A stretch of DNA of 64,000 bases from the NCBI RefSeq assembly GCF_009914755.1, contig NC_060941.1. One strand, written 5' to 3'. Every line of letters begins with the position of its first letter. Position 1 is the first letter of the stretch. Source of the stretch: the human T2T-CHM13v2.0 reference genome, Homo sapiens. A program made the translations under genes and the position numbers. The notes below the pieces were generated by a model. That model did no database searches and was not told where the DNA came from. It was given only the letters and a program-made list of their open reading frames with translations. This document shows, piece by piece, positions 720-64,000 of this stretch.

Positions 720-930
720 TAGTGGTTAATTAACACTTATGGGTGCTTCCTACGTGCCAGGACCCGTCCAAAACGCTTTAGAAATATGACCCATTTATTT
801 CTCATATCAACAGCAGGAGAGAAGAGGTGCTTATTAGCCTCAGTTTACAGATGAGGGGACTCAGGCTCAGAAAAGTCAAATAACTTCTCCCAATGTCACA
901 CAGGCAGTCTAGCTTCAGAAACATGGTTTA
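720..930. mobile_element. MIR SINE fragment (similar remnants at ~35690-36030, 39500-39650, 41020-41170, 48590-48790)
   Basis: tttacagatgaggggactcaggctcagaaaagtcaaataacttctcccaatgtcacacag is the MIR core. Confidence 0.65.
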
Positions 931-1359
931 ATTCCGTGTTTTCAAACCTTTTTGTTCATCTCACAGCAAGAAATACATTCTACATCAGCTCCCAGTGTAC
1001 ACATACGCGTCCGCATAGAACCGAAACGGAGTCCAAAAACAGAATAATACTCGCCGTGTCCAATGCACTCATCTTGAGAGAGAAAAACCCCTGCCTGCCT
1101 GGAGCTTGCGTTTGACTGGAGGGAGACAGTGAATAAGACCCACATGCAAAATTGCAGCATCCACGGTGGTAATTTGGGGAATGCTGTAGAGAAAAATGAA
1201 GCAACAAAGGACAAGGGTGGCCAAGGAAGACCGCCCGGGTGCTTCTGTTGCCAACTGCACTAATTTCAATGAGCTGTTTCCCACAGTGCGAAAACGCCTT
1301 CCCTTAATCGCTCCACTCTAATGCCTCCCTGTATGCTTGAGGGCTCTTTCTCCTAGATT

Positions 1360-1910
1360 GTGTGTGCACACATGTATGTGGCAGTGTGCACATGTATGTA
1401 CATGTGCAGGTGTCTGTGTATGCATGTATGTGGCAGTGTGCCATGTATATACGTGTGCAGGTGTGTATGTGTGTGCATGCATGTATGTGGCACTGTGCCA
1501 TGTGTATACGTGTAGGTGTGCATGTGTGTGCATGCATGTATGTGACAGTGTGCCATGTACATACGTGTGCAGGTGTGCAGGTATGTGTGTGCATGCATTT
1601 ATGTGGCACTGTGCACATGTACATATGCAGGTGTGTGTGCATGTATGTACATGTGAAGGTGTGAATGTGTGCATGTATGTATGTGACAGTATGCCATGTG
1701 TTTACATGTGCATGTGTGTGTGTGTGCATGCATGTATGTGGCAGTGTGTCACGTATATACATGTGCTGCTGTGCGTGTGTGTGCATGCATGTGACAGTGT
1801 ACCATGTGTATACGTGTGCAGGTGTGTGTGTATATGTGTGCATGCATGTATGTGGCAGTGTACCATGTATATACATGTGCTGCTATGCATTTATGTGTGC
1901 ATGCATGTAA
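1360..1910. repeat. Degenerate TG/CATG-rich minisatellite (alternating purine-pyrimidine)
   Basis: Recurrent blocks gtgtgcatgcatgtatgtggcagtgtgccatgtatatacgtgtgcagg; source of the His/Thr/Cys/Val ORFs. Confidence 0.9.
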
Positions 1911-3810
1911 CCAAGTGCAAGTCCACCCCCCACTCACTTCCTCACCGAGGAGGCTTTGGAGACAGAGGCAGAACCCGAACATGTAGCTGTGCAGTGTGCC
2001 ACAGGAGCTTGCCCTGCAGAGGGGGCTGGAATGGCACCTGAAATCTAGCCCAGGCATCACTAGCCAAAGCCGTGAGTGCCAGACACGTGCCCCAGCTCAC
2101 GTCTGTAGTCCTGAGGAAGGTGACTCTTGTTATCATTGGTCCACCCAGAGGGGAGCATCTTTTGCAATTCCCAGGGGCAGCGCCGATTTCTAACGTGCAT
2201 CAAGGTGCCCTATGTGCTAGAGTGTCCTAAGGGAGACAGGCGACGACTCACAGAAATAAAAATCACTCCCTGGGAAAAGCCTAGTGTACTGGGCACCCCG
2301 GGGAGGGTGACAGATGTGGGTCTGGGGGGAGACAGGATTGCAGCCAGCTCTGAAGCAGCTGGGGCCAGTTGGGTAGCCTCCACCAAGGGCATTTGGAACT
2401 TGGCACTAGGGTGAAATCTTCAGGCTCTTCCCTTAAGTTAAAGAGACATATAAAAATGTTACCAGCATGGGCGGCAAGAGCATTGCCTGTGGGAAACACA
2501 GCCAATCTTTGCTAAGGAATAAGTGTAATTGATCAAAACAGATGACTTGATGGACCTTCCAACTGTGCTTTTAGCAAAGTGGACAGTTTTTCATTCAAAT
2601 GCAAACTCATCCAGATAAAATCTAATAATGGAGATTTTGGAACAATCCCAGCATCAATGATTTTTTTTCCTCCTTCACTGAGCAGGAAGGCATCTTAAAT
2701 TCCTGGTTGCAGCTTGACCCAACCGGACACCACCAGTGTGCTGCTTTCCGCGTGGCTGAGGAGACCGTGACAGTTCACAGACACAGCAAAGGGCTCCCAC
2801 GCCACCCCCATCCCCACCTGACCTCTCCTCCTTAGCCCCATTCCCACTCCCTGACCTAGAAAGAGCTCGGTGGACGCTCAATTCCAGGCAATCATTTATT
2901 CAGCCATTATGCGTTGAGCTTTGACTGCTGCAAAGCACCGTGCATACTACCAGAAGGGGGTTCAAAGATGACTAAGATCAGGCCCTGTCCTCAGAAAAGA
3001 GAGCAGATGCGAGGGGAGAGAGATGACAGGAGACCCGGTGAAGGTCTCAGCTCACCCCAACGAGCACTTAATCTTTCTGAGCTTCGGTTTCCTCTTTTAT
3101 CCAGTGAAGACGCTGGACTAGACATGGTCTCTGGGCACCAGGCCAGCCGGAAAACGAGATGGGCCTAAGCCTCCCCTTGCCCTCTTGCTCCCAGACTCCT
3201 AGAAAGCCAAGAGGCCGGGCGCCGCCTTCTAAGAAGAAAACGAGTCCGCAGAGGGGGCTGGTGAGGGCCGTGGCCCTTCCCTGAAGTTTGCACGTGGCCC
3301 CAACACACAGAGCAGCCTGGAGAAGAGGAGACTAAGTTCAGAAAATGGAGTGGAAGGTTCGGCCTTCCGCGGTTAGGAAAGCGGAGCTCAGAAGGATCGG
3401 GGATTTCCGGGAGATGGGAAGCCCCTGGGGTGTGTGCAGAGAGGGGTGACAGACAGAAGGGTGACAGCACCCGGTGGCGCCAAGGGATCTGGCGGGGGCC
3501 AGGCCGGAGGGAGGGGCTGGGGGATGTCAGGGCCACGGAGCGCAAAGCGCAAAGGCCCGGGCGCCGGCCCTGCCGCCGCCGCCAGTTCATTTTCATAGAG
3601 TCGCCCGAGCTTAACGTCGCCTTGCACGTGTTTTCTAAGCTCCACAGGTGGCTTTGGGGTACACGGGCGCAGCTCACCCTCCTTCCCGCCCGCTCCCCGG
3701 CCCCGAGCTCGAGGTTAAACAGGGCCGCGGAGTCGGCCGGGAAGGGGTCCCGGCAGCCCGGGGTGGGGGGCGCGCGGCGGGGTCGAGCGGGGTCTGGGGG
3801 GGGCGCCCAC

Positions 3811-4648
3811 CTGCGGAGAAGTCGTCCTCGCGGTCGGAGCTGTGCCGGCTGCCGTCGCTGTCTCTCTCCGGCGAGCTGTGGCCGGGCGAGTCCCGCTCGG
3901 GCACCCGCAGGAACCTGCGGCGCCGCCACGGGGGCAGGTGCTCGCGCCCGGGGGTCTCCTCCGCGGCGAGGGGCGAGCCCGGGCGGCCCTTGGCCTCGGC
4001 CTCCCGCTGCTCCAGGTCGCGGGTCCCCCGCTGCGGCCGCCGCCCCCCGGGGATCAGGTGCATCCAGCGGCGGGGGCTGCGCGCCCGCTCGCGGGTCCCG
4101 AACCGGCAAGGGGCCACCAGCCAGTGGCTGAGGATGAACTTCTCGTTGAAATCCACCATCTCGAAGTCGTGGTCGCCGCCGTCGCCCCCCTCGTCCGTGC
4201 CGGGAGCCGCCTGGGGGTCCCCGAGGGGCGCGTCGTCCTCCCGGGCCCGGAACCGCAGCTGGGGCTGCAGGAGCTGCCGGTGGACGGCGTCGGCCCAGCT
4301 CCTTCCCCCGCCGGCTTCTCCGGCCGCCCCGGGCCCGGCGGGCAGGTCCCCGCGGGGAGACTCGGCCTCGGGGTCGGGGCGCCCGGGGTCCCCGCGGGGA
4401 GACTCGGCCTCGGGGTCGGGGCGCCCGGGCTCCCCGGAGTCTCCGCCGCCGCCCCGGGCCAGCGCGGCCTGCGGGAGCGAGGCTTTGAGCTGCTCCTCCG
4501 CCAGCACCTGTTGCAGCCGCTCCAGGTTGAGTCTGCGGCGCTCCAGCTCCCGCTCCGCGTCCCGCACCGACTCCAGCCTCGGGACCGGCGCCTCCGCCCC
4601 GGGGAACTCGGCCCGCCAGCGCCGCTCGAACGCGCGGGGGTCCCACAT
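3811..4648 (-). CDS. ABR: Distal first coding exon of ABR (long isoform) with a BCR-type N-terminal oligomerisation coiled coil; 279 codons + 1 nt, spliced to exons left of this window
   Basis: The ORF starts MWDPRAFERRWRAEFPGAEAPVPRLESVRDAERELERRRLNLERLQQVLAEE, collinear without gaps with the BCR N-terminus (MVDPVGFAEAWKAQFPDSEPPRMELRSVGDIEQELERCK, recalled). Donor GCAG|GTGGGC lies at minus 3811/3810, right after ...SSDREDDFSA. The exon sits in a CpG island, and its position and strand relative to BHLHA9/TRARG1 match ABR, the BCR paralog. Confidence 0.85.
4345..4428. repeat. Perfect 2 x 42-bp in-frame tandem duplication inside the ABR exon (PGRPDPEAESPRGD x2)
   Basis: ggtccccgcggggagactcggcctcggggtcggggcgcccgg occurs at 4345-4386 and 4387-4428. 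Confidence 0.95.
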
Positions 4649-5092
4649 GCCCCGAGCTCCGTCCGCGCCGACCCTTCCCCGCGGCCCCCGAAGAGACCAG
4701 AGGGAAAGTCAAGTGTCCCCTTCCGCCCTCGCGCCTCCTCCCCGTCTTCTTCCTCTTTTCTTCCCCTCCTGGGTTTCGCCTCCCTGACGTCGGCGGCTCC
4801 TCGCGGCGGGGGCGGGCGCCCCGGGGATGAGAACCCGCCCCGGGCATCCCACAGCCAGCTCGGGCCGCGGAGCCGCCGGGGGAGGGCGGGAGCTGCGGGG
4901 CCTGGACTCGAGCCTTCGCCGCCCGCCCCGATCCCGGCCCCGGACCCCGCCCGCCCCGCTCCCCTGTCGGCCCCGCTCCCTGCACCCGAGCGCGGGGCCC
5001 CGGACACCCTCCTGCCGGGCCGGGGGAAGACGTGGGGGCTGAGGGCGGCGTGGCTGGTGCCACTGCGGACCCGCGGGGTCGCCCTGCGCCGG

Positions 5093-5215
5093 GATTGATG
5101 GATTGATTGATTGATGATTGATTGATTGATTGACTGATTGATTGATTGATTTTCCTTTTTTGAGGCCAGGTCTCGCTCTGTCGCCCAGGCTGGGGCACAG
5201 TGGCGCGATCGTGCC
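5093..5215 (-). repeat. (GATT)n microsatellite at the tail position of a 3' Alu fragment
   Basis: A gattgattga... run at 5093-5150 is directly followed by ttttttgaggccaggtctcgctctgtcgcccaggctgg (Alu 3' end, minus strand). Confidence 0.8.
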
Positions 5216-5662
5216 TTAAACTCACGTGACGAAGATCACGGAGCAGTTTAGTCCAAATCCGGGGGTAACGCTTCGGGGTTCTGTCGGCCCCTGTAAGCTT
5301 CTCTCCTCTTCTCACTGAAGCTCTTCCGGGAAAAACACCCAAGGATGACTGAGCCAAGCGGCTCTAGCTGGAGGCGCCCGGGACCTCAAAGCTGGACTCC
5401 CCGGGGACTGAGTCCAACCGTGGCTGCAGGGGCCGCGGCCTGGCGGAGGGTCCGCGTGGGTGTCTACGAGGATCCCCCCCGTTCCATCTCCTCTTTGCGG
5501 CCTCAGACACTTCCCCTGGGGAGGACGAGAAATGGGAGCTGGGCCGGGCGCGGTGGCCCACGCCTGTAATCCCAGCACTTTGGGAGGCCGAGGTGGGCGG
5601 GTCACCTGAGGTCCGGAGTTCGAGACCAGCCTGACCAACATGGAGAAACCGCGTCTGTACTA

Positions 5663-44684: not shown

Positions 44685-46236
<1,552 letters not shown>

Positions 46237-46371
46237 CCGGCCTCGAGGCACCGGCTGGGCTGCAGGGAGGCCGGGCTGGCAGCTGGACTATAAAACCCGG
46301 GACTGCAAAGGCGTCTTGGACAGAGCAGAACTGGACCGGCTGAGACCTGGCGTGGAAGAGAAGGAGCTCGC

Positions 46372-46478
46372 CAGAGAGAAGGAGCTCCGGGACCCGGGGT
46401 TGCGCCCCCACATCCCAGCCTGGGGCAGAGAGAAGGAGCTCCGGGGCCTGGGGCTGCGCCCCCACATCCCAGCCTAGG
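46372..46478. repeat. 2 x 54-bp tandem duplication in the BHLHA9 3' UTR region
   Basis: cagagagaaggagctccggg...tgcgcccccacatcccagcct starts at 46372 and again at 46426. Confidence 0.85.
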
Positions 46479-46762
46479 GAGGCAGTTGCCAGAAAGGCTC
46501 AGGATCCTGAACTCATCTTGGACTCGAACTCGTCTTGGAATGCCGCCTTCGCACTCCTGCGCCTCCGAGCCCTGTGTGTTCTCGATGCTTTTAGGAGAGT
46601 GAGGGCTTTGAGGCAGGAGGTGTGGGAGCGTGGGAATGCGGGTGGGGCCTGCTGTGGTCTCGTGGGCACATGAGTGCGGAGTCCCCTTCCCTGCCTGCGC
46701 TGCTGCCCAAGCCTGATCCGGGAGAGGCAGGATCCGGGAGAGGCAGGCAGGGGCAGCAGCCA

Positions 46763-46768
46763 AATAAA
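46763..46768 (+). terminator. Candidate BHLHA9 polyadenylation signal AATAAA
   Basis: First AATAAA seen downstream of the stop codon (~530 nt). Confidence 0.6.
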
Positions 46769-49462
46769 AGGAAAAACTCATTTCTCTCCGATACCACGAC
46801 TCCAGTGGGCCCCGTGGCCCAGGGTGGCAGGAACGCCTGAGGGCTGGGGGCTCTCCTTGGAATGCTGGGCGGGGCCTAAGGCCCACAGGTAGGCGCCTGG
46901 GGGAACTCATTCATGGCAAGACCCCAGGTGTGGCTGAGCACTGTGGGAGCCCAAGGGGAGGAAAGAGACATCCAGAGACCCCTCCTCCCTGAGTCCCCTG
47001 GGGTGGAAGAGGATATCAGGAGAGGGGTCACGGGGCCTGGGAGTCTAAGGATGGGGTCAGCCCCGTCTCTGGACCTCCCTGCAGAGCTGCCTGGAAGCAG
47101 CCACAGTGAAGGGGGACTCTGGCCAGGTCTCAGGGAAGGAGGCCAAGGGCAGGGCTAGGATTGGGGGCCGGTAAGTCCTGCGTGCATGTACCCCGAGCGA
47201 CAGGCAGGAAGAGCTCCCAGGGAACCGTGGGCCAGGGCCCCCATAATGAGGGGCCGACTTGGAACCCAGGAAGGATTCTGGGGAGGGGGTTGAGTGAGGG
47301 CAGAGGGGCCTCAGGCCAAGCCTGCTGAGCTAGTGAGAGACACAGCCAGCTGCCCCGAGAGTTTTGTCCAGAGAGCTGCCCTGCATCTGAGATGAGCTGG
47401 TGTCTGGCCCGGCTCAGGGTAAGGGTCTAATATTGCAAGGGCTGCCTGCTGGGCCAGAGCCCAGAGGTGCTGGGGGAGCGCTGGGCTCTTGCCAACAGGA
47501 GAGGGAAGGGTTCCCCACAGCTAGCTCAGAGTGCGGATCCCACAGAAGCTAGAGAAACGCCATTAGGCGTAAACCCAGGGAGAGTTTCCCAGAGCACGTG
47601 GGGTGAGGCTCACCTCTACAGTTAAAAGTGCCTCTGCTGTCTGCAAACCCCAGCCCTGGCTGGCACGCTGAGCATCCTGTCCCCAGCCACAGCCCTTAGG
47701 GTTCCCAATTGCGCAGGGAGGCTGTGACACAGACCACGGGAAGGCTTTGACTCTATTGAGAGCGGACGTGGGTCTAGCCAGGAGCAGCAACGCAGGAGAT
47801 GCTGGCCCCAGCCCTGCCCGCCGAGCCCCACAGTGCCACGGGCTGCCAGTGAGAAGGAAAGAGCCAGGCCTGCCCTGGTCCAGCCCCTGCTCAGCCGCCT
47901 CTCTCAGCCTCTAGTTCCTCCCCTCTGACATGAATGATTCCAGGATGGCTGTGAGGATTGTAAGTGGTTCGTAATGGACCGTTTCTGGCAAACAGAAGGT
48001 GTTCACAAGCTGTCATGTTTGTGTACTATAAGGATCCTGTGAGAAACCAGCTTGGACAAGGCTGTAGCCATGTTTCAGCCTCAGGTATTTATCCTCTGGA
48101 AACACAATATAAGGACCAGCAAGTCCTACTTTGCTAAATTCCAGAACTGAAAGAAGTAAGGGGGCCGGGTGTGGTGGCTCGCGCCTGTCATCTCAGCACT
48201 GTGGGAGGCCCAGAGGCAGGTGGATCACCTGAGGTCAGGAGTTCAAGACCAGCCTGGCTAACATGGTGAAACCCCATCTCTACTAAAAATACAAAAATTA
48301 GCTGGGTGTGGTAGCGCATGCACCTGTAATCCCAGCTACTCGGGAGGATGAGGCATAAGAATTGCTTGATCCCGGGAGGCAGAGGTTGCAGTGAGCCGAG
48401 ATCGCGCGCCACTGCACTCCAGCCTGGCCAAAAGAGCGAGATTCTCTCAAAAAAAAAAAAAAAGAAAAGAAAAAGAAAGAAAGGTTCTTCTCCCCCATCC
48501 TATCACACTCTCAGCCTGGAAATAGCAAGGACACCCCTGCAGGCAGAATCCTGATGCGGCAGCCCCATGAGTTCAGTGGCAGGGATGTCACAGTTCTGGA
48601 CTTCCAGCTCCTCACTGACCAGCTGAGTGATCTTGGGCCAATCACCTGGCGGCTTTGAGCCTCGGTGTTCCCGTCTGTATAATGGGCTAGAATAAGTACT
48701 TACTTCATAGGCTGTTTTGGAGAGTAAATGGGAGGATGCATTTAAAGCACTAGCACAGTGCTTGGCCCACGTAAACGCTGACTGAGTGGAGGCTGTTCAG
48801 ACATATTCAGTTCACAAGGTTGTTACAAGGAGAGAATGCATGGGAAGCTGTTTTATCAACTGTAAAGTCTGGGACACATTGGCTGCTAGCATGGTTTTTC
48901 CGGGGCTGTGTGTTTGGGTGCTGTATGTTTGCCTAGGATTCTGAGTTTGTGATATGTACATATTTTGTGTGTGCTCACATAGATGTGTGGCTGCGTGGAT
49001 ATTTGTGTGGGTATCTATATACGTATCAACCTAACAGGTGCTTCCTCATCTCTCTGATGCCGCAGGGGATCCTGGGCCTGTGTAGCCTCCGTTACGTGCT
49101 GTTGAGGTTTTCTGGAACCCTTGCTTGATTTTTCTGTCTGCTTCCCAAGATCGTGTCCATTCTCCAAGATGACTTATATGTGGTGAAGAAAAGATTTTAT
49201 GATTATTAAAAAATGGTGGTTTCCACTGAGATCACATGGGTTTGCCCAAATATTGTTTAAAAGGCACAATGATAGGCATGAAATGCATAGAGAAAGGAAA
49301 ATGCCAGGAAGGAAAGACGCACGTGTAAGACAGAGCCGCCAAGCCATGGCTCACTGTAGCCTTGACCTCCTGGGCTCACGTGATCCTCCCACCTCAGCCT
49401 TCCTAGTAGCTGAGAATACAGGCGTGTGCCACCATGCCGGCTAATTTTTGTATTTTTTGTAA

Positions 49463-55009: not shown

Positions 55010-55386
55010 CCTCCCTGACTGAGCCTGAGCCTCCCTGGGAAGAGGCGCATTCTTCTCTCTGCTCTCTGAGCTTTCCGTTGCTTCCCTGCCCATCTGTGCT
55101 CTCAGCAGCACCAGCAAAGTTGGCCTCAAACTTGAACAAAGCTGCAGGCTCCAGCGTCTTTCTGGGAGCTCCGCGGGGGCAGCAGGCAGGCCCCAGCCTC
55201 TGAACTCAGCTGGCTTGAGAAGCCCAGCCCAACCCTTCCAGCACCCAGCCGGCCCTCCGTCTCCTGAGGGACGCCCCTGCCCCCGACCTGGAGGCCCTCA
55301 GTCTGGGCTGGGGAATGGCGCGCTGAGGTCCCTCCAGAGCCCCTTGTCCCAGCCTGGAGCTGCAGCCGCGCAAGGCCCAGGCCCCC

Positions 55387-55773
55387 ATGGCCCACCCGGT
55401 GCAGTCCGAGTTTCCTTCAGCACAGGAGCCAGGCTCCACCGCATCCCTGGACCTGCCGGAGATGGAGATACTCCTCACCAAGGCAGAGAACAAGGATGAC
55501 AAGACCCTGAATCTGTCCAAGACCCTCTCGGGGCCTCTGGATCTGGAGCAGAACGGCCAGGGCCTACCCTTCAAGGCCATCTCCGAGGGGCACCTGGAGG
55601 CCCCACTGCCTCGGTCCCCCTCCCGGGCCAGCTCAAGGAGGGCGTCCTCCATCGCCACCACCTCCTATGCCCAAGACCAAGAAGCCCCCAGAGATTACCT
55701 CATCCTGGCCGTCGTCGCCTGCTTCTGCCCCGTCTGGCCCCTCAACCTCATCCCCCTCATCATTTCCATCATG
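55387..55773 (+). CDS. TRARG1: Coding exon 1 of trafficking regulator of GLUT4 1 (TUSC5; CD225/dispanin family), 129 codons
   Basis: MAHPVQSEFPSAQEPG...APRDYLILAVVACFCPVWPLNLIPLIISIM contains the CD225 signature. Canonical donor ATG|GTAAGT after 55773 (phase 0). No further exon was recognised in the window. Confidence 0.96.
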
Positions 55774-57296
55774 GTAAGTGCTGGTCTTTGTTCCAGGGGC
55801 AGGGGCTGGGCCCAGGGGTCGGCAGGTGTTTCCCCCAGGCAGGCACCAAACACTGCCCAGGGTGTGGAGAAGAGAGAGCTGGGAGTGGGGGGCTTGGGGA
55901 AGACTCCTTTCCTCACTGGCCTCCTCCTTCCTCTTAGAGAGGGGCCCCGGGGCTGGAAGAGCTCCTGCTCTGTTCTCTCATCTCTGCTTCTGGGCATCAG
56001 AGCTCGACTTTGCACCTGTGTCTGCTGGGGAGGGGCCCTCAGGGAGCTGCCTGGCGATACATCCCGCGGGGCAGAAAGATAGCCAGGCTGGGGGTCTTGC
56101 TGTTTTAGGAGGGACGGGCGGTCCCAAAGGGTCATCGCCAAGTGGGGCTGTCTCAGCAGAGGTTGCACCGGACGGGGGTCCCAGCGCCCATGTGTCCTCC
56201 CAGGCCACCTGGACATGCTCCCAGCCTCTGCCGGCTCCGGTTTCCAAGAGTCGCAGCGGCTTCCCTGCCGTACCCTGAGGGCTCCGGGGCCAGGCTCCCC
56301 CGAGGGGCGCACAAAGCGGGGAGAGCTGGCAGACTGCTCCTCCCGAGGCGTGGAGTTCCCTCCGGAGCCCTCTGCAGCTCCACAGCTACGCTGACTTCAG
56401 CCTCGTCTTCAGGGCAGGGGAGGTCTGGGTCACAAGTGAAAAATGTGAGAGTCAGAGGGCATGGCCTGCCATGCCCAGGAAGGGGCATGGGGCCGGGTCT
56501 GTACTTCCATGGGATTTTGAATGAATTGTCTTAGATTGTCTCCAACCCAAGCCCTTTGGGTAGAGCTACTTATAAAGGATTCCATAGAAAATGTCAGCAG
56601 ATATTGGCAAGTGACTTTTGAAGTCCAGGAAGAAGCGAGAGTTATGAAAGGGTGGGGAGAGGGAGAAGCAGGGCTCAGCAATGATTTCAGAGTGAGGTCA
56701 GGGGCAGGGGGTAGAAAACTGCTGGCCCAGGCTGGTCAGGGCCAGAGGACTAGGTGTGGAGGGGGGTTCCCAAGAGTGACTCCCTGCAGAGTCACCATCA
56801 CCGAACCCCCAGGAGCTGTCCTCTGAGAAAGCTCCTATTTCTTCAAACCACTCTGTCTACCTCAGGGAGGCCCAGTCTCCCAGCAGGGAAGCCTTCCCCA
56901 TCCCACCAAAGCCAGTACTACCTTTCAGGACATCAGGGGGCACTGGCAGCCTTCCTGAGTCTGAGGGACTTGGCATGGGCTGTGGAAGCAGGGCCGGGCA
57001 GGGGCCTTCCGGGCAGCTCTCTGTGATGCCTGCTGTACCTGGGGACCGCTTGCAGGTAAAGCCAGGACCCAGGGGTGCAGCCAGTGGCTGTGGGCAGGGC
57101 CTGCCTCTTGGTTACAGGGAAAGGCCCCAGGAGGGGAAACTGGATTTGGGGAGGGAAGCTACCCAAGGGCTCAGGAGAAAACAGCTGCTGGAATCCATCT
57201 CCTGGTGGGGTGGCAGGGTGCAGGCTGGGCAGGACCTGCCTCTGACAAACAGAGCCTAAGCCCAAGGCAATGAGACCACAGAACCTGCCCCAGTGA

Positions 57297-57974
<678 letters not shown>

Positions 57975-58045
57975 TGAACTCCCGACCTCGTGATCCACCC
58001 ACCTCGGCCTCCGAAAGGGCTGGGATTACAGGTGTGAGCCACTGA

Positions 58046-58399
<354 letters not shown>

Positions 58400-58866
58400 T
58401 GATGAATACCAGGCTGGGCACAGGGAATACATTGCTAACCAGACACTGTTGCCAATTCCCCAGAACCTCCAGTCCGGCAGGAAGGAACTCTTAAACAGAT
58501 TCTTATGACATATTTCCAGAAGTGCCCGTGGTAGACATAAAGTTAAGATAATGAGCTGGGAAAGTCATTCAAACGGCTCTTCTCCCTGGCATTCCCATCT
58601 GCAAAATGGGTATAACCTCAATGCCTGCACGAGAGAGCCGTGAGGGGGTGAAATGAGACGGGCCACACCCAGTGCTTCAGAACAACACCAGGAGGGTGTG
58701 GGGCTCTTACAGGATAATGGGTACGTAAGTGGCAGCGGGGAGCCTCCCGGGGGAGGCAGGAAGCCATCCTGGTGTTTTAGAAATGGCTTTGTTGAGATAT
58801 AACTCACATACCATATGATGCACCCATCTAAAGTGTATTCACAGACAGGTGCAACAACCGCAGTCA

Positions 58867-59191
<325 letters not shown>

Positions 59192-60048
59192 TCAAAAAAA
59201 ATAAAATAAAATAAAGGGCCGGGAGTGGTGGTCATGCCTGTAATCCCAGCACTTTGGGAGGCCGAGGCGGGCAGATCACGAGGTCAGGAGATTGACACCA
59301 TCCTGGCTAACACGGTGAATCCCCATCTCTACTAAAAATGCAAAAAATTAGCCGGGCATGGTGGCAGTGGGCGCCTGTAGTCCCAGCTACTCAGGAGGCT
59401 GAGGCAGGAGAATGGCGTGAATCCGGGAGGCGGAGCTTACAGTGAGCTGAGATGGTGCCACTGCACTCCAGCCTGGGCGACAGAGCAAGATTCTGTCTCA
59501 AAAAAAAAAAGAAAGAAAGAAAGAAAGAAAAGAAAGAAAGAAACCCTGTCCCCTTCAGCTGTCACTCTCCATCCCTGCCCCTCCCAGCCCTGAGCAACCA
59601 CTCATCTCCTTTCTGTTTCTCTAGATCTGCCTATTCTGGACATGAAATGATAAATGGAATCATACAGTATGAGGCCTGTGTTCCTGGCCTCGTTCACTTT
59701 GCATGTCGTCTTCAAGCGTCATCCCTGCCGCAGTGCCGTAGCAGCACGCTGTAGGCTTTGCAGCCGAGAGGAGTGTGGTTGGATCTCCATTTTGCTGGAT
59801 CAGTCTGGGGCAGGGTGAGAGGAGGGGTTGGAGGGGATGAGGCTGGCGTTCAGCAGAGGGGACCCTCGTAGGAATGCAGGCAAGAGGCGAAGAGGCCAGG
59901 ACCAGGGCCAGGGACAGGGCCAGAGGTGGCTCTGAAACCCTCTAAGAGTGGGTTGTACCGACCATTCATTCATTCAGTCGACTTGAACAGCAAGTTGCTT
60001 GTGTTGAGGGAACTAAGTAGTAGAGGACGGTCAGGCCCCTGTGAATGA

Positions 60049-60193
<145 letters not shown>

Positions 60194-60689
60194 TAGCTGG
60201 GACTACAGGCGCCCGCCACCACACCCTGCTAATTTTTTGTATTTTTAGTAGATACGGGGTTTCACTGTGTTAGCCAGGATGGTCTCGATCTCCTGACCTC
60301 GTGATCCACCCGCCTCGGCCTCCCAAAGTGCTGGGATTACAGGCGTGAGCCACCACACCCGGCTGAATGCACCTCTTTTATGAACCAGGCACCGTGTTGG
60401 CATTTGGGAAGCAGATGGATGGGATAAGTAGACGGTCTGGCTGACATGGCAGAAGGCTGCAAGGGGTGTGATGGGAGAGGGAGGCAGCAGGGACTTGCTT
60501 AGGAATTTAAGTTCTGGCTGGGTGCAGTGGCTCGTGCCTGTAATCCCAGCGCTTTGGGAGACAACAAGTGGATCACTTGAGGTCAGGAGTTCGAGACCAG
60601 CCTGGCTAACATGGTGAAACCCCGTTTCTACTAAAAATACAAAAAATTAGCCAGGCGTGGCGGCACACACCTATAATCCCAGCTACTCA

Positions 60690-60869
<180 letters not shown>

Positions 60870-60872
60870 TCA

Positions 60873-61079
<207 letters not shown>

Positions 61080-61714
61080 CTACAGAGCAAGACTCCATCT
61101 AAAAAATGGGAAGGGAAGGGAAGGGTAAGGTCGAGGAGGGGAGGGGAGGGGGAAACTGGAGCCACATCAGAGAGATGTGGGGGTCTCTAACATCTAGGGG
61201 GAGGGCCGAGGGGAGTGGACAGAAAAGTATTTTGAAAAGGAGATTCCAGGAGGTGGAAGGAAATCTTGGAAAGGGGCAGAGACACCCAGGGAGGAGAGAG
61301 TCTGAAGGAGGGAGCGGCCAGCTCCGAGGCCGCTCAGGTTCAATGAGCATGGAAGCATCCACTGCCTTGGCCACGCATAGATCCCTGGTGACCGGGGGAT
61401 GGAGGGGCCTTGGCAAAATGGGAGGGATGATGGATGAGCTGAGGTCCTGGAAGCAGTGGAGAGATGCGATCCAGAGCCCAGGAAGAAAGACACCCTGTCC
61501 CTGGCAGCCTGAAGGAGAGGCCGTGAGGGCAGAGGCCGATGGAACTGCTCAGAGGGAAGGGGCTGGCTCACGCTGCACGGCCACCAGGCCTCCAGGGATG
61601 TGGGTCCAAGGTCGTTTGCTAAGAACTAGGGGCCTGGTGGCAGCAGGGAGGGGAGGTGACCAGGCACAGACAGGCCAATGGCCCAAGGCCTCTGCTGAGG
61701 CTGGAGACCACAGA

Positions 61715-62270
61715 TGTGGGGTGTTGTTGGCCTGTGGGGTGTTGCTGTCGGCCTGTGAGGTGTTATCGGCCTGTGGGGTGTTATCGGCCTGCGGGTTGTT
61801 ATCAGCCTGTGGGGTGTTGTTGTCGGCCTGTGAGTTGTTATCGGCCTGTGGGGTGATGTTATCAGCCTGTGGGGTGTTTTTATCAGCCTGTGGGGTGTTA
61901 TCGGCCTGTGGGGTGTTGTTGGCCTGTGGGTGTTGTCAGCCTGTGGGGTGTTGTCAGCCTGTGGGGTGTTATCGGCCTGTGGGGTGTTATTGGCCTGTGG
62001 GGTGTTGTTTTCGGCCTGTGGGGTGTTATCGGCCTGTGGGGTGTTGTTATTGGCCTGAGGGGTGTTATCAGCCTGTGGGGTGTTGTTGGCCTGTGGGTGT
62101 TGTTTTCGGCCTGCGGGTGTTGTTTTCGGCCTGTGGGGTGTTATCAGCCTGTGGGGTGTTATTGGCCTGTCAGGTGTTATCAGCCCGTGGGGTGTTGTCG
62201 GCCTGTGGGGTGTTGTTGTCGGCCTGTGGGGTGTTGTTGTCGGCCTGTGGAGTGTTGTTATTGGCCAGCC
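61715..62270. repeat. VNTR with an 18-21-bp unit (GGCCTGTGGGGTGTT[GTT]ATC) in TRARG1 intron 1
   Basis: Roughly 28 degenerate copies by eye. Confidence 0.93.
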
Positions 62271-63029
62271 GGGTGTGATTTGCTCCAGCTGTAGGTGTAG
62301 GTTCCCAGACATGCATATCAGGTCAACCCAAGTCTGAGGATGGCAGAGTTGCTGTGAGAGCAGGGCCAGGTGGTGAGGAGGATGCTGGTGAGGTGGCTGA
62401 GATGACACATCGAAGGGTTGGGCTGTGCTGGGAGGGAGCGAGGCCAGGAAGATGGTGATAGACTTGGAAGAGAAAAGGGGCCATGGGCTGAGAGAAGACA
62501 AAGGGCATGAGAGGGTGAGAGGGAAGTTGGGAGTTGAGTTTCAAAGGAGGAATCAGGTCAGGGGATGGCAAAGGGGTGGAGTGTAGTTGTGGAAATGAAT
62601 TTCTAAAGGGAAAAATCAGTAGCCAGGGAGGAGAGAGTTGAGGGAGCCCAGTGTTGAGGGCTAATATTACTAATACTCACTGAGTACCTACTAAATGTTA
62701 GGTACAGTTCCAAATTCTTTTTGTTGTTATTGTTGTTTTTGTTTTTTTTTGTTTTCTTTTTTTGAGACAGAGTCTCGCTCTGTCACCCAGTCTGGAGTGC
62801 AGTGGCACAATCTTTGCTCACTGCAAGCTCCGCTTCCCAGGTTCACGCCATTCTCCTGCCTCAGCCTCCTAAGTAGCTGGGACTACAGGGGCCCACTACC
62901 ACGCCTGGCTAATTTTTTGTATTTTTATAGTAGAGATGGGGTTTCATTGTGTTACCAGGATGGTCTCAATCTCCTGACCTCGTGATCCACCTGCCTCAGC
63001 CTCCCAAAGTGCTGGGATTACAGGTGTGA

Positions 63030-63395
<366 letters not shown>

Positions 63396-63610
63396 TGAAC
63401 TCTAGTCCTGACCTCAGCCTCTCTCTGTTGCCCGGGGACATCATGGCACCCATCACTCCTCAGTCTCATCCCCCTTCCCTCTTTGCAGCTCTCTTCCTCT
63501 CCCGTCTGGAAGAAACCCCTTTTATCCACCCGGTTGTATTTGCTCTGCCATCACCTATTCGCTTCCACTGCTGAGCTCCTAAGAGCTGCCTCCACGTGCT
63601 GTCTGAGCTT

Positions 63611-64000
63611 CATCCCCCACCAGCTCCCCATCCCCCACGGGCTCCTCATCCCCCTCCAGCTTCTCATCCCCCACCGGGTTCCCCATCCCCCACGGGTTCC
63701 CCATCCCCCACGGGCTCCTCATCCCCCACGGGTTCCCCATCCCCCATGGGCTCCCCATCCCCCATGGGCTCCTCATCCCCCACAGGTTCCCCAACCCCCA
63801 CAGGTTCCTCATCCCCCACTGGGTTCCCCATCCCCCACGGGTTCCTCATCCCCCACGGGTTCCCCATCCCCCATGGGTTTCCCATCCCCCACGGGCTCCC
63901 CATCCCCCTCCAGCTTCTCATCCCCCACGGGTTCCCCATCCCCAATGGGTTCCCCATCCCCCATGGGCTCCTCGTCCCCCTCCAGCTTCTCATCCCCCAC
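63611..64000. repeat. VNTR with an 18-bp unit (CATCCCCCACGGGTTCCC), continuing beyond the window
   Basis: Tandem catcccccacgggttccc / catcccccatgggctcct variants. Confidence 0.93.

What the first reader, a model, noticed from the sequence alone, without database searches (positions are those of the whole stretch)
3811..4648. ABR appears to retain a BCR-exon-1-like first exon encoding the oligomerisation coiled coil
Seen: an intact 838-nt coding exon with ATG, CpG-island promoter and GT donor. Recalled alignment: residues 1-65 match BCR 1-65 without gaps, about 26/65 identical by hand count. Two further blocks resemble BCR exon 1: DHDFEMVDFNEKFI vs DGDYEDAELNPRFL, and SSDREDDFSA vs SSEEDFSS. 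The exon ends in phase 1, as I recall BCR exon 1 does. Established: ABR is normally described as the BCR paralog lacking the exon-1 coiled coil, the domain that tetramerises and activates BCR-ABL1. Inference: a long ABR isoform could homo-oligomerise or hetero-oligomerise with BCR/BCR-ABL1, or donate a dimerisation module in kinase fusions. A transcript model may already exist in gene catalogues, but its function seems little studied.
Basis: partly seen in the sequence, partly recalled or inferred. Interest (0 to 1): 0.9.

Follow-up and report, generated by a model that had tools for sequence, protein, structure and literature searches.

The report
ABR's upstream BCR-like coiled-coil exon
An annotated but unstudied alternative first exon of the human ABR gene encodes the same kind of N-terminal oligomerisation coiled coil that activates BCR-ABL1, although the human copy carries changes that may weaken it.

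Summary
Window 3811-4648 (minus strand) is an 838-nt coding first exon with an ATG, a GT donor, a phase-1 end and a CpG island. Its first 65 residues match Pfam PF09036 (Bcr-Abl_Oligo) at 61.8 bits against a cut-off of 23.1. They align to BCR 1-65 without gaps, 26 of 65 identical.

It is not new to catalogues. RefSeq joins the exon to ABR exon 2 (NM_001322841.2, 1118 aa) and to a nearby terminal exon (NM_001322842.2, 329 aa). Papers I read still say ABR lacks this domain, and I found none that mentions it.

ABR-type copies occur in placentals, four turtles and a frog, and form a clade apart from BCR. Bat and tortoise gene models also splice the exon to ABR exon 2. Non-primate mammals conserve it well. 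Primates do not: hominoids lost several conserved hydrophobic residues, and only human has R38 and P59 at inferred core positions. At least 7 of 10 human-specific changes are AT-to-GC.

Similarity to BCR beyond the coiled coil is weak but collinear. The exon has no tyrosine, so no Y177-like site. Oligomerisation, hetero-oligomerisation with BCR and expression were not tested. Verdict: a real paralogous exon, interesting but already catalogued, with doubtful function in human.

The parts
4649..4740 (-). 5' UTR of the alternative first exon (RefSeq exon 3811-4740), with no upstream ATG
   Evidence: RefSeq annotation supplied with the finding
4454..4648 (-). Codons 1-65: Bcr-Abl_Oligo coiled-coil domain. 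Predicted helix 1 is residues 4-14 (4607-4639) and helix 2 is residues 28-65 (4454-4567).
   Evidence: Pfam 61.8 bits; 1k1f by sequence and by fold; AlphaFold2 helices with pLDDT 82-97 over residues 1-60
4535..4537 (-). Codon 38, CGC (Arg). This position is Cys in 35/35 BCR sequences and Cys or Ser in all other ABR-type sequences. Human-specific.
4472..4474 (-). Codon 59, CCG (Pro) inside helix 2. This position is Leu in all 28 other ABR-type sequences and in 97% of BCR sequences. Human-specific.
4345..4436 (-). In-frame 42-nt tandem repeat, 2.2 copies, 98% matches, encoding PGRPDPEAESPRGD twice
   Evidence: copy counts in ape models
4250..4303 (-). Conserved block around residues 116-133, containing the predicted short helix 118-126
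4115..4174 (-). Conserved acidic/hydrophobic block, residues 159-178 (DHDFEMVDFNEKF...). It is the weak counterpart of the DGDYEDAELNPRF block of BCR.
3811..3946 (-). Conserved C-terminal Arg/Ser/acidic block, residues 235-279, plus the first base of the split Asp codon. It aligns collinearly with BCR columns around LTWPRRSY ... DCSSN ... SSEEDFSS.
3809..3810 (-). GT splice donor, phase 1
908..3316 (-). Alternative terminal exon of the 329-aa isoform (coding part 3165-3316, AG acceptor). Its peptide tail is shared only with ape models.
3500..5300 (.). CpG island around the exon and its transcription start (GC 0.74, CpG observed/expected 0.92). RefSeq lists an hESC H3K27ac-H3K4me1 enhancer at window 3611-4315.

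Best explanation
This is the genuine, already annotated, most upstream alternative first coding exon of ABR. It is the paralogue of BCR exon 1.

It encodes an N-terminal Bcr-Abl_Oligo coiled coil: a short helix, a loop, then a helix of about 38 residues. About 210 mostly disordered residues follow, carrying a few conserved short motifs. The exon is spliced in phase 1 to ABR exon 2. That puts the coiled coil in front of the DH-PH-C2-RacGAP body, giving a 1118-aa isoform laid out like BCR.

Inferred mechanism: in species with an intact domain, the coiled coil forms antiparallel, helix-swapped dimers or tetramers as in BCR. This would make the long ABR isoform multivalent, or let it pair with BCR.

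The exon dates at least to the tetrapod ancestor and is under purifying selection in non-primate placentals. In primates it evolved fast. In human the core has been eroded (A31, R38, A56, P59), mostly by AT-to-GC changes typical of biased gene conversion. Human self-association is therefore probably weakened and may be lost.

Shown: identity, homology, splicing frame, age and pattern of conservation. Inferred: oligomerisation, its weakening in human, and the biased-gene-conversion cause.
For: RefSeq models. NM_001322841.2 has 23 exons and a 3357-nt CDS. It differs from the main transcript NM_021962.5 (2580 nt) by 777 nt, which equals 838 minus 61, so only the first exon differs. NM_001322842.2 is the short model.

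Splicing frame. The exon 1 to exon 2 junction is open in frame. The canonical first exon also ends in phase 1.

Homology of the neighbouring exon. BCR exon 2 (182 nt) and ABR exon 2 (185 nt) are both entered through a split Asp codon after Ala.

Domain evidence. PF09036 scores 61.8 bits. Only two loci in the whole reference pass the cut-off: BCR at 141 bits and this exon at 64 bits. AlphaFold2 gives helices 4-14 and 28-65, against BCR helices 5-15 and 28-67 quoted in PMC11247501. The top four Foldseek PDB hits are 1k1f chains, target-normalised TM 0.61-0.64.

Relatives. There are 21 placental hits. Four turtles, a frog and more mammals follow from the second search. 26 of 26 aligned ABR-type proteins hit PF09036. 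ABR-type and BCR-type coiled coils split at 100/100 support. The tortoise model P0026 and the bat model P0030 run from the exon end into the ABR exon 2 peptide.

Conservation. Among non-primates, the coiled coil is 80-95% identical and the rest 69-82% identical across orders. 185 of 348 columns are at least 90% conserved in 12 species. All indels keep the frame. GC3 is 0.95 against GC2 0.58.
Against: No expression, translation or protein-interaction data could be consulted here.

Human scores lowest for PF09036 among the sequences scored: 61.8 bits, against 70-72 in other primates and 98-105 in non-primates, tortoise and frog.

Human alone has Pro59 and Arg38. Hominoids lost M23, M31, F54, V56 and Y58, which are invariant or nearly so elsewhere.

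There are ten human-specific substitutions plus a 6-residue deletion in 277 codons, against 4 in bonobo. That does not look like purifying selection.

An orangutan model reads the exon in the +1 frame. New World monkeys lost part of the DHDFE block.

The heptad register I used is my own reading of the hydrophobic stripe, not a tool result.

CHM13 is one haplotype, so R38 and P59 could be polymorphic.
Confidence: 0.6

Rival explanations
1. In human, and perhaps in all apes, the exon is a decaying relic. It is still transcribed from its CpG island and still open. It stays open because 78% GC sequence rarely makes stop codons. Its coiled coil no longer works and the long isoform has no selected function.
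For: Four of six frames are stop-free. The human branch has 10 substitutions plus one deletion against 4 in bonobo, with at least 7 of 10 AT-to-GC and none GC-to-AT. P59 and R38 sit at conserved positions. The orangutan model is frame-shifted. Human has the lowest Pfam score.
Against: All conserved blocks remain in one frame in human despite 13 gap blocks relative to snow leopard. The start codon, helix 1 aromatic residues (F7, W11, F15) and 6 of 10 inferred core positions are intact. Human still scores 38 bits above the Pfam cut-off. RefSeq curators keep two NM_ models.
Confidence: 0.3
2. The main product is the short stand-alone protein: 329 aa in human, made of the coiled coil, the disordered region and a short tail. 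It would act on its own, for example by pairing with BCR, and not as part of ABR.
For: RefSeq NM_001322842.2 exists. Most hits in other species are short 'BCR-like' models of 270-430 aa.
Against: The tails after the exon boundary are unrelated between orders. They look like intron read-through or predictor artefacts, and only apes share the human tail. Models from a bat and a tortoise, and the names given to a gibbon and a cotton-rat model, tie the exon to ABR. The length window of the search (0.55 to 1.75 times the query) could not return 1100-aa isoforms, so the excess of short models is a sampling effect.
Confidence: 0.08
3. The region is only a CpG-island regulatory element, and the ORF and its resemblance to BCR are chance.
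For: RefSeq lists enhancer and silencer elements over it. ORFs are frequent in such GC-rich DNA.
Against: Pfam E=6e-17. The protein sequence is conserved from frog to mammals in one frame. The start and the exon end are conserved.
Confidence: 0.01

Closest known systems
BCR exon 1 and the Bcr-Abl oligomerisation domain (Pfam PF09036; PDB 1K1F)
   Same: An N-terminal helix-loop-helix coiled coil at residues 1-65, aligned without gaps, 26/65 identical. It is the first coding exon, ends in phase 1, and joins a homologous exon 2 through an Ala then split-Asp junction. Helices are predicted at the same positions. The tail motifs are collinear: W-x-R-R, D-C-S-x-N, S-S-x-E-D-x-S.
   Different: ABR exon 1 is 279 codons, BCR exon 1 is 426. 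There is no counterpart of BCR residues after about 350. The exon has no tyrosine, so no Y177 YVNV site. BCR's coiled coil is nearly invariant from fish to human, while the ABR type varies, most in primates. Charged positions that PMC11247501 lists in salt bridges differ: position 46 is Gln and position 53 is Lys or Gln in the ABR type. Oligomerisation is shown for BCR and not for ABR.
Canonical ABR (NM_021962.5, 859 aa), the form used in the papers read
   Same: Same gene, with exons 2-23 shared. The CDS length difference equals the first-exon difference.
   Different: The canonical first exon lies 51 kb downstream and encodes 20 residues with no coiled coil. Experiments describing ABR as lacking the domain used such short-N-terminus constructs (plasmid section of PMC3044668).

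Membership tests
Pfam PF09036 Bcr-Abl_Oligo | Score above the curated gathering cut-off (23.1 bits) | tested here: met
   61.8 bits, E=6.1e-17, residues 3-65 on profile positions 1-63 of 73. A six-frame genome scan gives 64.2 bits at this locus.
Pfam PF09036 Bcr-Abl_Oligo | A short helix 1 and a long helix 2 joined by a loop, at the extreme N-terminus | tested here: met
   AlphaFold2 gives H4-14 and H28-65 with pLDDT 82-97 over residues 1-60. BCR has helices at 5-15 and 28-67 per the PMC11247501 passage. The top four Foldseek hits are 1k1f chains. This is a prediction driven by the alignment, not an experiment.
Pfam PF09036 Bcr-Abl_Oligo | Conserved hydrophobic core of helix 2 and aromatic residues of helix 1 | tested here: inconclusive
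   F7, W11 and F15 are kept. Of 10 inferred a/d positions, human keeps 6 and has A31, R38, A56 and P59 at the others. Non-primate ABR-type sequences keep all ten as hydrophobic, Cys or Glu, like BCR. The register is my inference.
Pfam PF09036 Bcr-Abl_Oligo | Forms an antiparallel domain-swapped dimer and a tetramer | not testable with these tools
BCR/ABR paralogue pair: orthology of the first coding exon | Same intron phase, and splicing to the homologous second exon | tested here: met
   Both exons end in phase 1. ABR exon 2 finds BCR exon 2 as its only other match in the genome, though weakly, E=0.85. The splice sites were read directly.
BCR/ABR paralogue pair: orthology of the first coding exon | Homology along the whole exon, not only the coiled coil | tested here: inconclusive
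   HMMER is not significant. hhalign local hits reach P=0.003, 0.037 and 0.043. The chain score is 38.6 against a permutation maximum of 34.1 (0 of 300 reach it), but the reversed control gives 32.3.
BCR exon 1 signalling features | A Y177-type phosphotyrosine docking motif (YVNV) | tested here: not met
   The human ABR exon has 0 tyrosines. BCR exon 1 has 11, with YVNV at 177.

The most novel reading that the evidence does not exclude
The ancestral tetrapod ABR was a BCR-like protein that oligomerised. Non-primate mammals still make such an isoform under strong constraint. Primates are dismantling it, and the human lineage added two core-breaking changes (C38R, L59P) through biased gene conversion near the 17p telomere. 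Humans would then differ from other mammals, including model species, in whether ABR can self-associate or pair with BCR or BCR-ABL1.
Probability: 0.3. Interest if true: 0.7.

Novelty: new member of a known kind. Interest (0 to 1): 0.55.

Why it matters
BCR's coiled coil is what switches on BCR-ABL1 and other BCR-kinase fusions, and it is a drug-design target. ABR is treated throughout the papers I read as the paralogue that lacks it, and it is used as a natural 'no oligomerisation domain' control.

A long ABR isoform that carries a second human copy of the domain raises three questions:
- Can ABR self-associate?
- Can ABR pair with BCR or BCR-ABL1, or soak up peptides designed against the BCR coiled coil?
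- Do rodent or carnivore ABR, with an intact domain, behave like human ABR, with an eroded one?

All three can be tested directly with short recombinant peptides and isoform-specific reads. The value is limited by two things. The exon is already in RefSeq, and the human copy may be functionally weak.

Tried and rejected
Full-length long-isoform orthologues (about 1100 aa) could not be retrieved. The protein word search only returns proteins of 0.55 to 1.75 times the query length, and no stop-free reference longer than 513 aa was available. I did not try to get round this. As a result, the absence of ABR-type exons from fish, birds, squamates, marsupials, mouse and rat says little.

dN/dS could not be computed, because no orthologue DNA is reachable with these tools. 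I used protein identities, lineage-specific substitution counts and codon routes inferred from human codons instead.

HMMER profiles of the non-coiled-coil part against BCR gave nothing significant. hhalign in global mode gave a meaningless alignment. The fish proteins P0077-P0079, P0085 and P0086, with lower identity to BCR, were checked as possible fish ABR-type copies and are BCR-type.

I rejected the chance-ORF reading and the stand-alone short-protein reading (see the rival explanations).

Literature searches:
- RefSeq ids: 0 papers.
- Pfam name or id: 29 papers, none on ABR judging from the 20 titles and abstract starts listed.
- ABR/BCR domain, isoform and evolution terms.
- Six ABR-kinase fusion names: 0 papers.

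These searches cover open-access PMC and bioRxiv only. Fusion names written with a double colon cannot be searched. Supplementary tables were closed and I did not ask for them. Such tables, for example the CAGE start-site tables of PMC5470264, could hold expression evidence for this exon.

Of each paper cited (PMC3044668, PMC3861082, PMC6505627, PMC11247501, PMC5470264) I saw only the passages returned by the find mode.

Full report
WHAT IS THERE

On the minus strand, window 3811-4648 is an 838-nt coding stretch of 279 codons plus one base. It begins with ATG at 4646-4648 and is followed by a GT donor at 3809-3810. The 92-nt 5' UTR has no upstream ATG.

The exon lies in a CpG island. Window 3500-5300 has GC 0.74 and CpG observed/expected 0.92, and GC peaks at 75-79% over 3501-5000. 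The exon itself is 78% GC, with GC3 0.95 and GC2 0.58. Four of its six frames have no stop codon, so an open frame alone proves nothing here.

RefSeq already uses the exon in two curated models. NM_001322841.2 has 23 exons and encodes 1118 aa. Its first exon joins ABR exon 2, 108 kb downstream. NM_001322842.2 has 2 exons and encodes 329 aa, ending in an exon at window 908-3316. The long CDS exceeds the main transcript's by 777 nt, which is exactly 838 minus 61, so only the first exon differs. The canonical first exon also ends in phase 1, and the exon 1 to exon 2 junction translates without a stop.

THE COILED COIL

The exon peptide hits one Pfam family, PF09036 Bcr-Abl_Oligo, at residues 3-65. 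The score is 61.8 bits, E=6.1e-17, against a cut-off of 23.1. The only PDB sequence match is 1k1f, the BCR oligomerisation domain, at E=1.3e-8.

I took BCR exon 1 from the same genome (L001:457-1735). It is 1279 coding nt, also phase 1. BLASTP gives 26/65 identities with no gap over residues 1-65 of both proteins, E=3e-12.

A six-frame scan of the whole reference with PF09036 finds two loci above the cut-off: BCR at 141.1 bits and this exon at 64.2 bits. Closed regions are not shown by that tool.

AlphaFold2 was run with a 26-sequence alignment. It predicts helices 4-14 and 28-65, with pLDDT 82-97 over the first 60 residues. It also predicts a short helix at 118-126. Most of the rest is below 50, so probably disordered. 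A passage of PMC11247501 gives BCR helices at 5-15 and 28-67. Foldseek against the PDB returns four 1k1f chains as the top hits (E about 6e-3, target-normalised TM 0.61-0.64) and nothing else meaningful.

RELATIVES AND AGE

The first protein search used the human exon and returned proteins of roughly 153-488 aa. It gave 21 hits, all placental mammals, 20 of them pre-annotated with PF09036.

A second search used a 17-sequence alignment and gave 30 hits. The new ones included four turtles (P0025, P0026, P0027, P0029), the frog Ascaphus (P0031) and more mammals. All 26 aligned ABR-type proteins hit PF09036 when scanned one by one.

A third search used BCR exon 1 and gave 56 hits from mammals, birds, reptiles and many fishes. 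Every fish sequence I inspected is BCR-type.

Several species have one copy of each type: Galemys, Scotinomys, Saguinus and Gopherus agassizii.

A maximum-likelihood tree was built from 35 of the 66 available 65-residue coiled coils. It separates ABR-type from BCR-type with 100/100 support, and the frog and turtles fall on the ABR side. The exon is therefore at least as old as tetrapods.

The searches cannot return proteins of about 1100 aa. Missing groups (fish, birds, squamates, marsupials, mouse, rat) therefore mean little.

LINK TO ABR IN OTHER SPECIES

After the conserved exon end, the tortoise model P0026 and the bat model P0030 continue into the peptide of ABR exon 2. The box-turtle model P0025 continues into a stretch that contains the canonical ABR first-exon peptide. 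Two models are named ABR isoforms by NCBI, one from a siamang and one from a cotton rat.

The other short models diverge immediately after the exon boundary, and only apes share the human short-isoform tail. I read the many short 'BCR-like' models as failures of gene predictors to bridge a 100-kb intron.

EXON STRUCTURE COMPARED WITH BCR

The ABR exon 2 peptide finds, besides itself, only one other place in the genome. That place lies inside BCR, 73 kb downstream of BCR exon 1, and the match is weak (E=0.85). Read directly, it is a 182-nt exon with AG and GT sites. ABR exon 2 is 185 nt. In both genes exon 1 ends with an Ala codon plus G, and exon 2 completes an Asp codon.

BEYOND THE COILED COIL

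In non-primate mammals the rest of the exon, about 280 residues, has four well-conserved blocks:
- one around AVRSLTAAIHQQL;
- DHDFEMVDLNEKF;
- HRWMHLIPGG;
- the last 45 residues.

These are shown. Turtles and the frog share most of them.

Against BCR the evidence is weak. BLASTP finds nothing and HMMER is not significant. Profile against profile, it reaches P=0.037, and a second collinear block (W-R-R-K-R-F against T-W-P-R-R-S-Y) reaches P=0.043.

When the coiled coil is included, hhalign extends one collinear alignment to BCR residue 347.

My own profile-chain score is 38.6. Over 300 column permutations the mean is 23.3 and the maximum 34.1, so 0 of 300 reach the real score. A reversed-order control gives 32.3.

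I conclude that common ancestry of the whole exon is likely but not proven. BCR residues after about 350 have no ABR counterpart. The human exon has no tyrosine, whereas BCR exon 1 has 11, including YVNV at 177.

CONSTRAINT, AND ITS LOSS IN PRIMATES

Among non-primate orders the coiled coil is 80-95% identical and the rest 69-82%. 185 of 348 occupied columns are at least 90% conserved in 12 species. I judge this far above what unconstrained sequence would keep across placental orders, and every indel preserves the frame.

Human against non-primates is 66-72% in the coiled coil and 58-65% in the rest. The primate branches of the tree are long.

Pfam scores fall stepwise:

| Sequence | PF09036 bits |
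|---|---|
| BCR | 137.1 |
| Snow leopard | 104.5 |
| Cotton rat | 102.7 |
| Tortoise | 98.6 |
| Frog | 97.8 |
| Cebus | 72.1 |
| Siamang | 72.0 |
| Bonobo | 70.4 |
| Human | 61.8 |

Hominoids replaced M23, M31, F54, V56 and Y58. These are invariant or nearly so in 20 non-primate ABR-type sequences, and identical or similar in 35 BCR sequences.

Human alone has Arg38 and Pro59. Position 38 is Cys in 35/35 BCR sequences and Cys or Ser in all 28 other ABR-type rows. Position 59 is Leu in all 28 other ABR-type rows and in 97% of BCR sequences.

I inferred the heptad register from the hydrophobic stripe, not from a tool. On that register, human differs at 4 of 10 core positions.

With siamang as outgroup, the human branch has 10 substitutions plus a 6-residue deletion in 277 codons. 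The bonobo branch has 4. Working back from the human codons, 7 of the 10 must have been T-to-C or A-to-G. One was G-to-C, two are ambiguous, and none was GC-to-AT.

This is the signature expected of GC-biased gene conversion in a recombination-rich subtelomeric region. The window starts 1.1 Mb from the 17p end. This cause is an inference, because I have no orthologue DNA and no population data.

An orangutan model reads the exon in the +1 frame from about residue 105. That may be a real frameshift or an assembly error. New World monkeys lost part of the DHDFE block.

LITERATURE

Passages in PMC3044668, PMC3861082 and PMC6505627 state that ABR lacks the N-terminal oligomerisation domain. PMC3044668 uses ABR as a contrast to BCR for that reason, and its construct carries the non-neuronal short N-terminus.

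PMC5470264 ranks mouse Abr third for start-site switching in the developing cerebellum. That fits the eight RefSeq ABR transcript models with different 5' ends, but it does not mention this exon.

No paper held the RefSeq ids. None of the listed papers holding the Pfam name or id concerns ABR, judging by title and abstract start. Three further searches on ABR/BCR domains, isoforms and evolution found nothing on the point. Subscription journals and supplements were not searched.

VERDICT

The exon and its BCR-type coiled coil are real and ancient. They are already catalogued and are overlooked in the papers I could search. The mechanism I think most likely is BCR-like antiparallel oligomerisation of a long ABR isoform. 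That reading is well founded for non-primate mammals. It is doubtful for human, where the domain has been eroded. Hetero-oligomerisation with BCR or BCR-ABL1 remains an open and directly testable idea.

Noticed in passing
window 4345-4436 (-): There is a 42-nt in-frame tandem repeat (2.2 copies, 98% matches) inside the coding exon. Two bonobo models differ in copy number: 8 in P0001 and 2 in P0002. It may therefore be a length-variable coding minisatellite or an assembly problem.
   Followed up: partly
window 3811-4648 (-): At least 7 of 10 human-specific amino-acid changes require AT-to-GC mutations and none requires GC-to-AT. GC3 is 0.95. This looks like GC-biased gene conversion in a subtelomeric exon.
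   Followed up: partly
protein P0020 (Pongo abelii model) against window 3811-4648: The orangutan model carries a peptide that equals the human exon read in the +1 frame. This means a frameshift, either in that assembly or in the species.
   Followed up: partly
protein P0025 (Terrapene model): After the coiled-coil exon, the model runs into a stretch that contains the canonical ABR first-exon peptide. In this turtle the upstream exon may splice into the canonical first exon and not skip it.
   Followed up: no
window 3611-4315 and neighbours (chr17:1119246-1121449): RefSeq functional elements overlap the exon. They include an hESC H3K27ac-H3K4me1 enhancer and several reporter-assay 'active' and 'silent' regions.
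   Followed up: no
window 3165-5357 (-), 3648-4787 (+), 3842-5098 (+); L001 535-1773 (-): Long ORFs of 379-730 aa occur in other frames and on the opposite strand of both the ABR and BCR first exons. I read them as by-products of very high GC content, not as genes.
   Followed up: partly
proteins P0045 and P0063 (Leuciscus waleckii): One cyprinid fish has two distinct BCR-type first exons, presumably teleost duplicates. Neither is ABR-type.
   Followed up: partly
window 45409-46780 and 55047-64000: BHLHA9 and the start of TRARG1 lie in the window. I did not examine them.
   Followed up: no
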